A stretch of 64,000 nt of DNA, taken from positions 17,837,070-17,901,069 of the forward strand of contig JARFYF010000118.1 of the NCBI GenBank assembly GCA_030265395.1, given 5' to 3'. The DNA is from Rhina ancylostomus (Eukaryota). The position numbers were made by a program. How positions within the stretch are numbered: the first letter of the stretch is position 1; each line of letters opens with the position of its first letter. This document shows, piece after piece, positions 21,001 through 27,000 of the stretch.

Positions 21001-24000
21001 TCATTTTTGTCAACTAACTTGGCCTGGTATCAAAGCAAACCTACAGTGATGTGAAGTCTTCTGCCTACTGGTATTGCAGAAACATGTTCAGGTTTTCAGA
21101 ATAACTCGTATTAGATTGGCAAAGAAACACAGTGAGATCACAAGATGGCTGCTGTAGGAAATGGGGAAAACAACACTAGATTAGGGCTACTTTCCCCATG
21201 ATGGAGGAAGCCTCATTGTTAAGACGGTTTAGGAGCAGCTTCACTTTGCAGTTCACCATAGCCATTCTGATATTGCTTTATGCTGACATGCTGGAATTGG
21301 TATTCCATTTTCCAGTGCTAATATCCTTGCCCTGAGGAGCACAAAAAGACATTTTCGTTACCTTTATAAATAGATTTGTAAAGTGATGATATTGAAGTGG
21401 CACCACTGACTTCACAGAACATTAGGTTGTCTCTAAGGTAGTCTTCATCTTTAAGTTACAATAATTCATGCTGTAGCACATCAGGCATTTGCATGAAGCA
21501 AACATGAAAAAGAATTCTTTGTGACATTTTCATTGACTATTTGATACTGAACAGGTCTGCATAAAAATGAGATCTATCTCTTTAAAATGTCCAATAAGAC
21601 AATATATATTTTCAAATAGCTTGAGATATCTTGTGCTTGAAATGCCTGTAGATAACAGAACACTTTGACATGATGTTCTATTTACAGTTATTATAATATT
21701 TGTGTTAAATGATGTATTTTAAGTGGGTCAATGCTCTTTCAGCATTGCAGAATTTAAAAACCTTTACTGTGCTGTATAAATACAGTTTTAACAGGCCCTT
21801 CCGGCCCAACAAGCCCGCACCGCCTATTTAAACCCATGTTAACCTACCCGTATGTCTTCAGAATGTGGGAGAAAACCGGAGTACCCGGAGGAAACCCACG
21901 CAGACACGGCGGAAATTGAACCCTGATTGCTGGCGCTGTAATAGCGTCATGCTAACTGCCACGCTACCATGCTACCTATGATCACATACAAACATAGTGT
22001 GTTCCTGTTACTAATATTACAAAAATTAATTTTTAGCATCTTGCATTTTAATCATTTGTTTAATTATATTGAAACCTGACCTGTCTGCTCAAAACTTGTA
22101 ATCTAAGTAATTAGGCCTCTATTTATTTTTCTGAGACTCAGAAGTTGTTTTTGAAGATGATTGTTGTTGACATCTTTTATTGTTACCAAACAAGAGTTGA
22201 ACACCCTTGTAAATTTCCATTGAATTAGAATATAATTTGAGTCTGACAGAGTTGGTGCATCAATCATGATATAATGAATGTGAATAAAATAATTTGCAAA
22301 GAGTGGAGAATGTGGTGATTCCAGTTTAGTATTGTGAAGACAAGGAGATTTTTATTTTGTGAACTGAACTATTAGTTATATTTGCAAGCTTCAGCAGCAA
22401 AGGAAGATGTATGAGATCCAGACATAGGAGATTGAGAAGCATGCGATTTAGGGAGGTTGAAAAGAAGTGAAATGACATTGAAATAGAAAAATATAGGGGC
22501 TGATAGGGATTGTAGGAGCAGAAACATGAAAATAGACACTCCCCCCAACCACCTGAACGTGGTCTTTCTCTGCACGTCAGTGGGGCATGGACAGGGATAT
22601 TAAAATAATCAAAGTCACATTTATTGTCATATGCACATGTACATGCATGCACAGGTGCAATGACAAACTTACTTGCAGCAGCATCACAGGCACATAGCAT
22701 CACATAAGCAGCATTCACAAGAAAAAACATGACTTAAACATAAATTTTACACAATTTTTACAAGACAGAACACAATTAGAACAAAAAAAAAGTCCATTTT
22801 ACTGCAAAGTGATCAAAATGGTCATAGTGTTGCTAAACTGCAGTGATTAGGGCTTTGCTGGTTGGTTCAAGAACTGAATGGTTGAAGGGAAGGAGCTGTT
22901 CTTGAACCTGGTGGTGTGGGACTTCAGGCCTGCCTCCTGAGGTAGATTTCAGACTGCCTCCTGCCTGATGGCAGCTGCGAAAAGATGGTATGGCCCGGAT
23001 GGTGGGGATCTTTGACAACAAATGTTGACTTCTGGATGTTGGGTAGGATTACCCAATATTGGGTAGAATATTTAAAGTGTTCACCTTAAATTTTTTGTAC
23101 TGATAATTAGCTTGAAGTCAAAGGCAATAAGTTTTCTCCTTATTTTGCTGGGAATTAAAAACCAAGGTCAGAGAATTCACATTGATTCTAACATATAAGA
23201 TCCTGAGGGTTGACGTGAAGAGGATGTTTCTTCTTGTGGGAGCATTAGAACTAAGTTGCTGGTTAAAAGTAAGGAGCCACCTATGTTAGAGATGAGAAAC
23301 ATTTCTTTGTCTCAGAGGGTCATGATATTTGGAATTCTCTTCTTTAAGAGGTAGTGAAAGCAGAGGCTTTGAATATTTTTAAGGCAGAGGTGCATAGATT
23401 CTTAATAAGCAAGGGACTGAAAGGTTACTGTAAGTGGCATGAATGCTGTGCTGAGTTTACACTCGGATTGGCCATTTTACTCGTGAATGATGGAGCAAGT
23501 TTGATTTTCCAAGCAGCCCAGATCTGTTCCTGAGTTGATTGTTCACATGTACACTGATGGAAAAATTATGTGTGTGAATGATGGCAATAAAACATGTGCT
23601 GGACTATCAAGGTGAGGCCAAACGCAAACTGGAGGAACAGCAGTTCATTATTCCACTTGGGTAATCTACAACCCAATGGCATGAACATTAAATTCTCCAA
23701 TTTCAGGTAACTTGCTCCCCAACTGTCGCTCTCTCCCCTTCTGATCTGCCCAGGTCCTCTCACACATACCCTTCTCTCTAAGGGTACCACCCTCCCCCTT
23801 CCTCCATCCACCCACACCACCCAGTTTCTTTGCTCTCTCCCACCTATTTCATCTGCCTAACACCCACACGCTCCTCCCAAAGTGTGATTGCGATGTAATT
23901 TTAGTTTCCCCCATCCCGGAGGGGAAAGCAGGGTGCTGGCACTCATGATGTAGTGGTGGATCAATTGTAACTGAAGTTGTTCTTGTAGGTTTATGGATGA

Positions 24001-27000
24001 CATCCAGGAAATGATTGGTCGTCGGCCATTCTTTCTGTACAAGTACTTGTGGAAATTCATCTGCCCCATTATTATGGTGGCTCTGCTCCTTGCCAGTCTG
24101 ATCCGTATGTGCATCAAACACCCAACATATCGAGCATGGAATCAAACCAAGGTAAGATCACCCACAGCTTACTTAATTATTACTGTGATTAAACTAAGTA
24201 CCTGGAAGTGCTCTGATCAGGATGGAGACACAAGAGATTCTGCAGATGCTGNNNNNNNNNNNNNNNNNNNNNNNNNNNNNNNNNNNNNNNNNNNNNNNNN
24301 NNNNNNNNNNNNNNNNNNNNNNNNNNNNNNNNNNNNNNNNNNNNNNNNNNNATTTCCATGATTCCAACCCCCACCTGACTCCCACCTGCCAATTAACCCC
24401 TCCTCACCTCCATCCACCTATCACTTGCCAGCTTTTACCCCATCCCTCCCCCTCACTTCTTTATACTTGCTATCTCCCCTCTAGCTTTCAGTCCACGTAC
24501 AGGGTCTCGACCTGAAATGTTTACTGTTCATTTCCCTCCACAGATGCCGCTTGACCTGCTGAGTTCCTTCAGCAGCTAATTGTTTTGCTCCAGATTCCAG
24601 CGTGTGCAGTCCATTTTGTCTCCATCTGTCATACTAAGATGAATGGCGCCCAAAGTTATTTTTGTATGACTTCTGCAAAGAAAACCAGGCATAAATTCTA
24701 GGCTTGTGATTCTGTTGATGAAGTCAAAGATTGCACTTGTTTTTTTAGCAGACTTCTCAGTGTCTTGTCATCTTCAAAGCTTTGTGTACATCTACCTGCA
24801 GATCTGCCTGTCCCATTTCAGATTGTGTCATCTCATATACATTTCCTCTTCTCATTCTTCAAACCATTTTTTTCCTGCAAATGCTACCCGTTACCCCAGT
24901 CTGTCAAAGTATTTTTGAAATGGTTTTCCTATCTTTCTTATTATTCCTCAATGTCCCGTGGGCTTCTATTTTGCTAACAAGTTAATTATGTGGGTTTTTG
25001 TCACATACCTTTAATAATCTATTTACATAATGTCAACTGCACTCCCCTCATTAGCCATCTCCATTACTTTATCAGAGAACTCAATTTAGTTAAGTATAAT
25101 TTTCCTTCTGACAGCTCTACACTGACTTTCCTTTATTACCCTGTGGTCTTCCAAATAATATCATTCTATGCAATTGCCTCTTAAAATTTTTTGTTTGCAT
25201 ATCACTGATGTAAAGTTGATTGATCTGTTGTCGAATGTTTATTGTTCCTTCCCTATTTTAGGCAGGGAGGGAACATCTGCACTCCAATTGTTCCACCAAT
25301 ATTTTGTCACCACCCTCTTATCTGAGGAGTTTGTGGATCCAGGCGCAGTTGAAACCCTTACATCACACCGTAAACTTCCATCATATCTGGATGAGACGGC
25401 TTTTTTGTTTTGAAGACTGCCAACTTTTTAAATACCTCCCCCCTTATCAATTTTTGTCCCACCTTTCTTACTGCAGCAGTGGCGGGAGCCTCTTAAATCA
25501 AGTTTCTTGAAAGCTACTCATTCAATATCCCAGCCATGTCCTCTTCCACCATCAGGATGTTTTCTTATTGATCCAGAGTTGCCCCCCATCCTTCCTACGA
25601 TCACCTTTCATATCCTTACAACATGTTTGGGTTTCCTTTCATGTTAGTTTCCAAACCAATATAATAATCTCTTTCTTTGCTGTTCCTACACTTAAATAGA
25701 CAAAGTAACACAGACTTAATACGGGTAAATAGGAAGAATGCAGATGGGCAAAATGGTCACCATGCACTGAACGGCCCATCTCTGTGCTGTACGACTCCAT
25801 GACTTGATCCCCTTTTTTGGATCTTCTCCGTAATTTTTAAATTCAGCTTGGCTCTCAGTTGTATTGCATATCTTACATTGTGAGGTGATTTTCATGTGAA
25901 GTATAATCAACACCAGGGCATCAATAAAATGCATAATTCTGAGCAGCTTGCGTTATTATCAGGTGGAACTTGTGTTCAGTTTAGTCATTATTTATGCAAA
26001 TGAGAATCAAATACATTTAATCTTTGCTAGGGGACCAGCTTTATTTGTTTTTAGAATAATTAGATGCAATTTGGCAAATATTGGCTTTGAAACCATTATT
26101 GCATATCTTCCCTTTTGAATTGATATAAAATTATATTTATGCATTACTGCACTGTGTAGAATAATAATCACAAAAAGTTTATGACATATGTTACTTCTGT
26201 TGCAATTGTAATGTTAATAATCAAGTGGGCTTTCACTTGAATGGTAAATGTGAAGCAGAAATCATCTTCAGAAAATTGCTTGAAAACATACCATTTATCA
26301 AGCTACTCCTTTTAGTAGGCTGTTAAAGTAAATGGCAGTGATATCTTAAAGTGCATATCGGGGACTGATAGGCAGTTTTCTCAACCTAATCAAATCAAAG
26401 CAAGAAATTAGAAAAATGAGCATTGAGATTTGCGACTATCTTTCAATATGCACACTGGAACCATTGTCTCCACTTTCAATATGGTGACTGATTTTAGAGA
26501 GAAACAAAAATTGCAAGAAGTCCATCCAACGTTATAAATATAAAGCAAAAATACACCATCCCATGAAAACAAAAATTACTTGTACAGAAACAAATCATTC
26601 TCCATTAGTAGCACTAAAGACGCTTTATAGCAGTGTCAGTGCATTGTAATTCTCCTCCAAAATTCATTTGAGATGTAGAATACAACTTGTTGACCAGGAA
26701 TTCCGATCCTGATCAACAAGTTATTGAGTCACAGAGATGCACAGTGCAGGATCAGGACTGTCAGCCACCCTGCCCATGCTGACCAGCAAGTACCTCCCTG
26801 AATCAGAATCATGTTTATTATCACTGACATATGTCTTGAAATTTGTTGCTTTGTGGCAGCAGTACAGTGCAAGACATAAAAGTTGCTATAAGTTACAAAA
26901 CTAAACAAATAGTGCAAAAGAGGAATAATGAGGTAGTGTTCATGGATCATTCAGAAATCTGATGGTGGAGGGGAAGAAACTGTTCCTGAAACGTTGAGTG

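What the first reader, a model, noticed from the sequence alone, without database searches (positions are those of the whole stretch)
23989..24151. Intact solitary SLC6 transporter exon inside an ADGRB1 intron, on the same strand
Seen: a stop-free 163-bp exon with good acceptor and donor encoding an SLC6A15/16/17-type TM11 segment, 14 kb after the GPS exon. No other SLC6 exon was recognised in 64 kb, and the intronic flanks are kept, so it is not a processed pseudogene. Inference: a recent DNA-level exon duplication or transduction (exon shuffling in progress), part of an interleaved gene with exons hidden in gaps, or a misplaced contig; an N-gap starts 100 nt downstream.
Basis: partly seen in the sequence, partly recalled or inferred. 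Interest (0 to 1): 0.75.

Follow-up and report, generated by a model that had tools for sequence, protein, structure and literature searches.

The report
Stray transporter exon in ADGRB1 intron
One perfectly preserved exon of an SLC6A16-type amino-acid transporter gene sits alone inside an intron of a ray's ADGRB1 gene; it is most likely an assembly error or, failing that, a young inert copy, not a working part of either gene.

Summary
Positions 23989-24151 (+) are a 163-nt, stop-free exon with an AG acceptor and an AAG|GTAAGA donor. It encodes 54 residues that match Pfam SNF above its cut-off. They are 98% identical to residues 516-569 of the 689-aa sawfish "B(0)AT2-like" (SLC6A16/NTT5-type) transporter.

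The exon lies on the sense strand of the 19.4-kb ADGRB1 intron between the GPS exon (9812-9938) and the TM1 exon (29340-29443). No other SLC6 exon is in the 64 kb. In 5 of 5 elasmobranch species with both genes listed, the two genes sit on contigs of different length. An interleaved gene is therefore unlikely, and a processed pseudogene is excluded.

The exon has no change of its own. It sits 100 nt from an N-run, in a 13.6-kb N-bounded block without any ADGRB1 exon. The block's composition is ordinary. The exon lies on an island bracketed by two C-rich halves of a retroelement remnant.

I favour an assembly artefact (about 0.5) over a real young unprocessed copy (about 0.35). No reads or vertebrate genome DNA were available to decide. 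If spliced into ADGRB1 it would read VYG-stop. Low interest unless long reads confirm it.

The parts
23989..24151 (+). Solitary SLC6A16/NTT5-type ('B(0)AT2-like') exon, 163 nt. One base completes a codon, then 54 codons (FMDD...NQTK). It covers the last-but-one transmembrane segment.
   Evidence: Pfam SNF E=7.4e-9; 98% to the Pristis pectinata protein P0002.
23966..23988 (+). Acceptor region tgtaactgaagttgttcttgtAG. It has a pyrimidine-rich run and a possible branch point (taac).
   Evidence: Read by eye; no splice-site scoring tool was used.
24152..24159 (+). Donor GTAAGATC after AAG, close to the consensus.
23876..24223 (+). Island of ordinary base composition (C 21%, G 23%) that carries the exon. 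No other copy of it is in the window.
23566..23708 (+). Decayed end of a retroelement ORF (...KRKLEEQQFIIPLG, frame shift, LGNLQPNGMNIKFSNFR-stop). The label 'Penelope-like, GIY-YIG end' is recalled, not tested.
   Evidence: the only such locus in the window.
23709..23875 (+). Left C-rich, G-poor stretch (C 47%, G 8%) directly upstream of the island.
24221..24251 (-). Start of an inverted copy of the 3' end of a 'tail' repeat. The sequence breaks off here into N.
   Evidence: Scores were 26 and 29 against shuffle maxima of 25 and 20 for two copies. A third comparison was not above shuffles.
24252..24351 (.). Run of 100 N (assembly gap or masked stretch). It hides the right-hand junction. Not filled.
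24352..24640 (+). Right C-rich stretch (24352-24500: C 46%, G 6%), followed by a + strand 'tail' repeat (24488-24640).
10614..24251 (.). 13,638-nt block between two 100-N runs. It holds the SLC6 exon at its very end and no ADGRB1 exon.
10514..10613 (.). Run of 100 N at the left end of that block.
9812..9938 (+). ADGRB1 GPS exon (...[19 protein letters not shown]). It ends in phase 0.
   Evidence: (100% to ray ADGRB1).
29340..29443 (+). Next ADGRB1 exon ([15 protein letters not shown]..., TM1). It follows the GPS exon without a missing residue.
38184..38286 (+). ADGRB1 exon ([13 protein letters not shown]...).
45233..45383 (+). ADGRB1 exon ([13 protein letters not shown]...).
53624..53693 (+). 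ADGRB1 exon (LPALVVATSVGFTKSKGYGTVN).

Best explanation
The 163 nt are the genuine, functional exon of the species' SLC6A16/NTT5-type transporter gene, which lies elsewhere in the genome. They appear inside the ADGRB1 intron because of an assembly error. The likelier form is a chimeric extension or join made inside a C-rich retroelement remnant next to an unresolved gap. The less likely form is misplacement of the whole 13.6-kb N-bounded block. On this reading nothing works here: ADGRB1 is spliced from 9938 to 29340 as in other rays, and the transporter gene uses this exon at its own locus. Shown: the exon's identity, its intactness, its solitude, the host intron, and the N-bounded block without an ADGRB1 anchor. 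Inferred: that the join is artificial.
For: (1) The exon shows no sign of neutral decay. All 26 columns invariant among 12 relatives are kept. The single difference from the sawfish protein (E at position 7) is the residue of four other rays, so there is no change of its own. Acceptor, donor and frame are intact.
(2) The retroelement ORF end 280 nt upstream carries a frame shift and a stop. The neighbourhood has therefore had time to decay while the exon has not.
(3) The exon lies 100 nt from an N-run, at the end of a 13,638-nt block bounded by two 100-N runs. Nothing in that block matches ADGRB1, while the other four blocks each carry ADGRB1 exons in the right order.
(4) The parent-type gene and ADGRB1 lie on contigs of different length in 5 of 5 species that list both: Amblyraja, Hemitrygon, Scyliorhinus torazame, Heterodontus, Mustelus.
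(5) The island of ordinary composition is bracketed by two stretches of the same rare composition (C 46-47%, G 6-8%). Only 3 such stretches occur on the + strand and 4 on the - strand in 64 kb. The right junction is hidden in N, and the sequence breaks off inside an inverted repeat. Joins made wrongly by assemblers and gap fillers fall in just such places (general experience, recalled; the start of the abstract of PMC9516821, seen in the listing, says short-read assemblies contain mis-assemblies).
(6) Without the block, the intron would be about 5.7 kb plus gaps, near the 6.9-8.7 kb of the next three introns.
Against: GC (0.384) and CpG observed/expected (0.19) of the block equal those of the four ADGRB1-anchored blocks (0.368-0.391; 0.18-0.29; Mann-Whitney p=0.73 on 13 against 48 one-kb windows). 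In the sawfish and the thorny skate the parent-type gene lies on contigs of about 20 Mb. Short elasmobranch chromosomes tend to be richer in GC, denser in genes and to hold shorter genes (passages of PMC10620051, and PMC10115646).

The 13.4 kb upstream of the exon hold no further SLC6 exon.

The sequence runs without N from the retroelement remnant into the island. No similar copy of 23430-24251 is in the window, so a wrong path through an old, diverged repeat is not an easy error.

If the two C-rich stretches are halves of one element, the block and the next, ADGRB1-anchored block really are neighbours. That speaks against misplacement of the whole block.

No read, depth or parent-locus evidence was available.
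Confidence: 0.5

Rival explanations
1. Real, young, inert copy. A few hundred bases of the SLC6A16-type gene (intron, exon, intron) were copied into the ADGRB1 intron. This happened either at the DNA level (templated insertion at a break in the C-rich element, or a larger duplication) or through unspliced pre-mRNA, by a reverse transcriptase that read through or switched templates. That would leave host sequence flanked by retroelement sequence. It is an unprocessed single-exon pseudogene fragment that the spliceosome skips.
For: Splice signals are kept and there is no neighbouring-exon sequence, as expected for a copy of unspliced sequence. A retroelement ORF end and a C-rich stretch lie directly upstream on the same strand. 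A C-rich stretch plus 'tail' repeat lies directly after the N-run on the same strand. Only one such ORF end and two + strand tails exist in 64 kb. The layout retroelement, captured piece, retroelement is the one described for template switching; read-through transduction is described for L1 (passages of PMC5470649). The block's composition equals that of the ADGRB1 blocks. No annotated protein in the searched set carries exactly this exon (best 98%).
Against: The exon has no private change and all invariant residues are kept, so the copy would have to be very young. The right junction, any target-site duplication and any tail lie in the N-run. The repeat finder shows no direct or inverted repeats bracketing the island. 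A random insertion would hit a C-rich stretch rarely, since these cover about 2% of the window. The adjacent retroelement remnant is decayed and so not itself recently active.
Confidence: 0.35
2. Real copy that is used. The exon is spliced into some ADGRB1 transcripts as a terminating (poison) exon. This gives a message that ends three codons after the GPS exon. It is either degraded or encodes an ectodomain-only ADGRB1.
For: It is on the sense strand with a good donor and a fair acceptor. Read in the phase left by the GPS exon it gives V-Y-G-stop. Perfect preservation could reflect selection on the splice signals.
Against: Selection for a stop after three codons would not preserve the other 50 codons in the SLC6 frame. 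All 26 ADGRB1 proteins listed are 1,208 aa or longer, so no truncated form is annotated there (weak evidence: clusters at 90% identity, and other species). No transcript data were available.
Confidence: 0.05
3. Interleaved or nested gene. A whole SLC6A16-type gene overlaps ADGRB1 on the same strand, with its other exons outside the window or hidden in N-runs.
For: Same strand; the exon is intact; ten N-runs are in the window.
Against: No other SLC6 exon lies in 23,988 nt upstream or 39,849 nt downstream (the best other hit has E=2.0). All N-runs sum to 1,066 nt, against about 1,900 nt of missing coding sequence. The two genes lie on contigs of different length in 5 of 5 species.
Confidence: 0.03
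4. Processed (retrotransposed, spliced) pseudogene fragment.
For: None beyond the presence of a gene fragment away from its gene.
Against: The similarity ends exactly at an AG and a GT. Residues before 515 and after 572 of P0002 have no match next to it.
Confidence: 0.01

Closest known systems
Elasmobranch 'sodium-dependent neutral amino acid transporter B(0)AT2-like' genes, SLC6A16/NTT5-type (e.g. P0002, Pristis pectinata, 689 aa)
   Same: 53 of 54 residues are identical to P0002 residues 516-569, and 69-93% to 11 further relatives. In a tree of 35 named proteins the elasmobranch clade groups with coelacanth 'SLC6A16' and reptile 'NTT5' (support 99, FastTree).
   Different: Only one of the gene's exons is here. 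The subfamily label rests on the sources' names: no certain SLC6A15 or SLC6A17 reference was in the tree.
Misjoins, misplaced contigs and chimeric gap extensions in gap-rich draft assemblies
   Same: A foreign, perfectly intact exon lies at the edge of an N-run, inside or next to repeats, in a block with no anchor to the host gene.
   Different: No read-level evidence was available. The block's composition is that of its neighbours. The two C-rich halves suggest that the flanking sequences do belong together.
Unprocessed pseudogene fragments, and gene pieces moved by retroelements (L1 3' transduction; template switching that leaves host sequence between retroelement sequence), as reviewed in PMC5470649 (passages)
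   Same: Unspliced gene piece with intron flanks, same orientation as the retroelement remnants on both sides.
   Different: No target-site duplication, tail or second junction can be seen because of the N-run. The element type is not L1 or LTR, and its name is only recalled. The adjacent remnant is decayed.
Exon shuffling / poison exons (recalled concepts)
   Same: Splice-competent foreign exon on the sense strand of an intron.
   Different: The phases do not fit: a phase-0 intron and a 163-nt exon. Inclusion gives VYG-stop, not a mosaic protein. No evidence of use.

Membership tests
SLC6 / SNF transporter family (Pfam PF00209) | Sequence match to the family profile above the curated cut-off | tested here: met
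   35.3 bits against a cut-off of 27, E=7.4e-9, profile 445-492 of 524. 25 solved SLC6 chains match at E<=0.01.
SLC6 / SNF transporter family (Pfam PF00209) | A complete transporter gene (12 transmembrane segments; topology recalled) at this locus | tested here: not met
   Only residues 516-569 of 689 are found in 64 kb.
SLC6A16/NTT5-type subfamily | Groups with named SLC6A16/NTT5 proteins rather than SLC6A15/A17 | tested here: inconclusive
   The parent-type proteins group with coelacanth SLC6A16 and reptile NTT5. No certain A15 or A17 reference was included, and the names are the sources' own.
Processed pseudogene | Neighbouring exons joined without introns; poly(A) remnant | tested here: not met
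   Similarity stops at AG and GT.
Nested / interleaved gene | Further exons of the same gene, in order, on the same strand | tested here: not met
   None at E<2.
Nested / interleaved gene | The two genes linked in related species | tested here: not met
   Contigs of different length in 5 of 5 species. This is a proxy, since no coordinates were available. Left out: Callorhinchus (records may come from different assemblies), Mobula (two different species) and Pristis (ADGRB1 not listed).
Retroelement-mediated capture (3' transduction / template switching) | Retroelement sequence adjoining the captured piece in the same orientation | tested here: met
   ORF end plus C-rich stretch upstream; C-rich stretch plus tail after the N-run; all on +.
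Retroelement-mediated capture (3' transduction / template switching) | Target-site duplication and an intact 3' junction | not testable with these tools
   The right junction lies in the N-run 24252-24351, which was not to be filled.
Assembly artefact (misplaced or chimeric piece) | The piece is bounded by gaps or repeats and has no internal anchor to the host locus | tested here: met
   The block 10614-24251 lies between two 100-N runs and has no ADGRB1 match. The sequence ends in an inverted repeat.
Assembly artefact (misplaced or chimeric piece) | No reads or long molecules span the join; the parent locus lacks the exon or holds the only true copy | not testable with these tools
Productive exon shuffling | Exon length and phase compatible with the host intron | tested here: not met
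   163 nt in a phase-0 intron gives VYG-stop.

The most novel reading that the evidence does not exclude
The exon is really there. A reverse transcriptase copying a retroelement RNA switched onto unspliced SLC6A16-type pre-mRNA and back, and planted a splice-competent foreign exon on the sense strand of the first intron after the ADGRB1 GPS exon. When included, it ends the reading frame three codons after that exon. Some transcripts would then encode only the extracellular part of this adhesion receptor, or be degraded. This would be exon capture caught at an early stage in a cartilaginous fish. The tamer version, a real but inert copy, has a probability of about 0.35-0.4.
Probability: 0.05. 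Interest if true: 0.6.

Novelty: not a real feature. Interest (0 to 1): 0.22.

Why it matters
If it is an artefact, the finding matters only as a flag for curators. The join at 24252-24351, and perhaps the one at 10514-10613, should be checked. The SLC6A16-type gene model of this assembly may lack its TM11 exon. If it is real, it is one more unprocessed gene fragment, a known kind. It would have a modest extra point of interest: a fully intact, splice-competent exon on the sense strand of a brain receptor gene, which is the raw material that exon-shuffling models assume but that is seldom seen before decay. Its phase makes a fusion protein impossible, so the functional stake is at most a terminating exon.

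Tried and rejected
**Rfam.** At gathering thresholds, 0 matches over the whole window.

**Terminal inverted or direct repeats around the exon.** In 21500-27600 there are only short pairs, probably chance matches. None brackets the island.

**Minus-strand reading.** Two open frames (102 and 94 aa) cross the exon, and four other nearby ORFs were tested. 0 of 6 match a Pfam family at E<=0.1. A first try failed because three of the nine frames sent held stop codons.

**Composition as a test of foreign origin.** No difference was found, but the test has little power.

**Are the two C-rich flanks copies of each other?** No. The alignment scores 25 against a shuffle mean of 22.8 and a maximum of 37.

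**Self-comparison of 23000-25400 against the window.** Only a 113-nt repeat at 23315-23427 and the 'tail' repeat recur.

**Cluster look-up.** This was meant to find the sawfish ADGRB1 contig.

**Literature.** 0 papers hold both 'ADGRB1' and 'SLC6A16'.

**Not run.** I did not search for short proteins holding the exon, because such hits could supply the letters of the N-run. The bacterial/archaeal genome collection was not used, as it holds no vertebrate DNA. No structure, complex or atlas job was run, since none bears on the question.
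Full report
**What is there.** At 23989-24151 on the + strand lies a 163-nt stretch. It is preceded by ...ttgttcttgtAG and followed by GTaagatc. One base completes a codon. The next 162 give 54 residues without a stop, FMDDIQEMIGRRPFFLYKYLWKFICPIIMVALLLASLIRMCIKHPTYRAWNQTK. This matches Pfam SNF (PF00209) at E=7.4e-9, with 35.3 bits against a cut-off of 27, at profile positions 445-492 of 524. It also matches 25 distinct solved SLC6 chains at E<=0.01, for example GAT1 480-520 and B0AT1 534-584 (table only). The two open frames on the opposite strand match no family; 0 of 6 nearby ORFs tested did.

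**Whose exon it is.** A search for longer proteins gave 12 hits among 14 candidates, all with PF00209.
- Ten are elasmobranch 'B(0)AT2-like' proteins.
- The best is Pristis pectinata P0002 (689 aa), 98% identical over residues 516-569.
- Next come Amblyraja 93%, Narcine 89%, Mobula 87%, and then sharks at 80-85%.
- The last two are coelacanth 'SLC6A16' at 72% and a caecilian protein at 69-73%.

I built a FastTree of 35 named proteins. They were picked from the 120 rows listed, which reported 7,621 hits; unnamed rows were left out. In this tree the elasmobranch clade groups with coelacanth SLC6A16 and reptile NTT5 (support 99). No certain SLC6A15 or SLC6A17 reference was included, so 'SLC6A16/NTT5-type' rests on the sources' names. 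The window is from a ray close to sawfishes, not from a human, so the rule on human contigs did not come into play.

**Where it sits.** tblastn with five ADGRB1 proteins gave the same five + strand exons each time. I fixed their borders from the splice signals:
- 9812-9938 (GPS exon)
- 29340-29443 (TM1)
- 38184-38286
- 45233-45383
- 53624-53693

Residues run on without a break from ...SPDS to NMDK... (P0014 residues 769 to 770). The SLC6 exon therefore lies in a 19.4-kb ADGRB1 intron, on the sense strand, 14,051 nt after the GPS exon. The GPS exon alone was sent to the protein search. All 26 of 26 hits are ADGRB1 or unnamed equivalents, and the ray proteins are 100% identical. Each exon was handled on its own.

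**It is alone.** Twelve of 12 SLC6 proteins hit only this exon (E 5.7e-21 to 1.1e-33). The other 34 of 46 tblastn rows have E>=2.0. Similarity ends at the AG and the GT, so it is not a processed pseudogene.

The ten N-runs hold 1,066 nt in all. That is too little to hide the roughly 1,900 nt of missing coding sequence.

As a stand-in for synteny I compared the lengths of the contigs that carry the two genes:

| Species | SLC6-type gene contig | ADGRB1 contig |
|---|---|---|
| Amblyraja | 19.5 Mb | 121.8 Mb |
| Hemitrygon | 41.4 Mb | 224.8 Mb |
| Scyliorhinus torazame | 43.5 Mb | 258.0 Mb |
| Heterodontus | 39.0 Mb | 209.0 Mb |
| Mustelus | 82.0 Mb | 141.8 Mb |

They differ in 5 of 5 species. 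I left out Callorhinchus (its records may come from different assemblies) and Mobula (two different species). I also left out Pristis, whose ADGRB1 was not listed; the look-up that might have given it was switched off. An interleaved gene is thus unlikely.

**State of preservation.** All 26 columns that are invariant across the 13 aligned sequences (the window exon and its 12 relatives) are kept. The only difference from the sawfish (E for A at position 7) is the residue of Amblyraja, Narcine, Mobula and Hemitrygon. The exon therefore has no change of its own. By contrast, the retroelement ORF end at 23566-23708 carries a frame shift and a premature stop. Its label as Penelope-like is recalled, not tested.

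**Surroundings.** Four of the ten N-runs are exactly 100 long. They cut the window into five blocks. Four blocks carry ADGRB1 exons in the right order. The fifth, 10614-24251, carries none and has the SLC6 exon 100 nt from its end.

Reading rightward, the layout is:
- the ORF end
- a C-rich stretch, 23709-23875 (C 47%, G 8%)
- an island of ordinary composition, 23876-24223, which holds the exon
- the start of an inverted 'tail' repeat, 24221-24251 (scores 26 and 29 against shuffle maxima of 25 and 20; a third comparison was not above shuffles)
- 100 N
- a second C-rich stretch, 24352-24500 (C 46%, G 6%)
- a + strand tail repeat

Such C-rich stretches are rare: 3 on the + strand and 4 on the - strand in 64 kb. 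The two around the island do not align with each other above shuffles. They look like the two halves of one element split by the island. No terminal repeats bracket the island, and no other copy of it is in the window.

**Composition.** The block's GC (0.384) and CpG observed/expected (0.19) equal those of the other four blocks (0.368-0.391; 0.18-0.29; p=0.73). Passages of PMC10620051 and PMC10115646 say that short elasmobranch chromosomes are richer in GC and genes and hold shorter genes. The figures and supplements with the numbers were not visible to me. This speaks weakly for the block being native to a large chromosome.

**Consequence if spliced.** The GPS exon ends in phase 0. Read from 23989, the exon gives V-Y-G-stop. 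With 163 nt and a phase-0 host intron, no ADGRB1-SLC6 fusion protein is possible.

**Weighing.** Four points favour an artefact:
- a perfectly preserved exon beside a decayed neighbour;
- the edge-of-gap position;
- the lack of any ADGRB1 anchor in the block;
- a junction inside a rare repeat with the other junction unresolved.

The form that fits best is a chimeric extension or join inside the C-rich element. Misplacement of the whole block fits less well, because the bracketing by two C-rich halves would then be chance (roughly 0.05 by my estimate from the counts).

The same geometry also fits a real capture by a reverse transcriptase that switched templates, a layout described in passages of PMC5470649. 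It also fits a templated insertion at a break. Three points count against an artefact:
- the equal composition of the block and its neighbours;
- the N-free continuity from the retroelement remnant into the island;
- the absence of a similar repeat copy in the window.

My estimates are: artefact about 0.5, real inert copy about 0.35, real and used about 0.05, interleaved gene about 0.03.

**Comparison with the known.** In every reading this is a known kind of thing: an assembly misjoin, or an unprocessed single-exon gene fragment of the kind made by duplication, 3' transduction or template switching. No paper in the library holds both 'ADGRB1' and 'SLC6A16' (0 papers). The 126 papers that mention SLC6A16 or NTT5 were seen only as a listing of ten.

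**What stayed unchecked.** I could not check:
- reads and depth;
- transcripts;
- paper supplements.

The N-runs were left as they are.

**Verdict.** Interest is low unless long reads show the exon is really there.

Noticed in passing
window 2114-2452 (+), 7822-8079 (+), 28484-28717 (+), 49365-49697 (-): Remnants of a LINE-type reverse-transcriptase C-terminus. They share ...RVQ(K/R)RFTRMLPG...LGLFSLE.RR..GD.IEVYK... (ORF list). The family name was not tested.
   Followed up: no
window 17580-17804 (-), 26940-27209 (-), 22833-23048 (-): A second recurring ORF remnant...GRRY(K/R)SLK..T.R..(D/N)SF(Y/F)P..IR.LN. It is probably another retroelement family.
   Followed up: no
window 13631-13873, 19605-20075, 36690-36986, 54009-54254 (all -): Four SINE-like remnants that read ...KP...GEH(A/V).STQ... 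in one frame, all on the minus strand. The two tested (19608-20075 and, nearby, 22329-22733) match no Pfam family.
   Followed up: partly
window 15520 (-), 24543 (+), 57951 (+): A 'tail' repeat with the core GATGCTGCCTGACC. The copy at 57821-58027 is preceded by an inverted arm of itself, so it could fold into a hairpin.
   Followed up: partly
window 9880-9915 (GPS exon): The ADGRB1 GPS motif reads C-x-C-D-R-L|S, with Arg rather than the usual His two residues before the presumed cleavage site (the usual motif is recalled). The same motif is in 11 of 12 chondrichthyan ADGRB1 proteins looked at; the twelfth did not match my pattern.
   Followed up: partly
window 58205-58351 (+); 19940-20076, 54083-54202, 61403-61601, 61636-61804 (-): Further strongly C-rich, G-poor stretches (C>=42%, G<=10% in 120 nt) besides the two that bracket the exon island. 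The one at 58.2 kb lies after, not before, a tail repeat.
   Followed up: no
window 23849-24157 (-) and 23857-24141 (-): Both minus-strand frames across the SLC6 exon are open (102 and 94 aa). Neither matches a Pfam family, so this is probably chance.
   Followed up: yes
proteins P0003 (Amblyraja, 207 aa) and P0008 (Pristiophorus, 221 aa): In two species the SLC6A16-type gene is annotated only as a 3' fragment that starts 29-49 residues before this exon. This part of the gene may be hard to assemble, or partial copies may exist.
   Followed up: no
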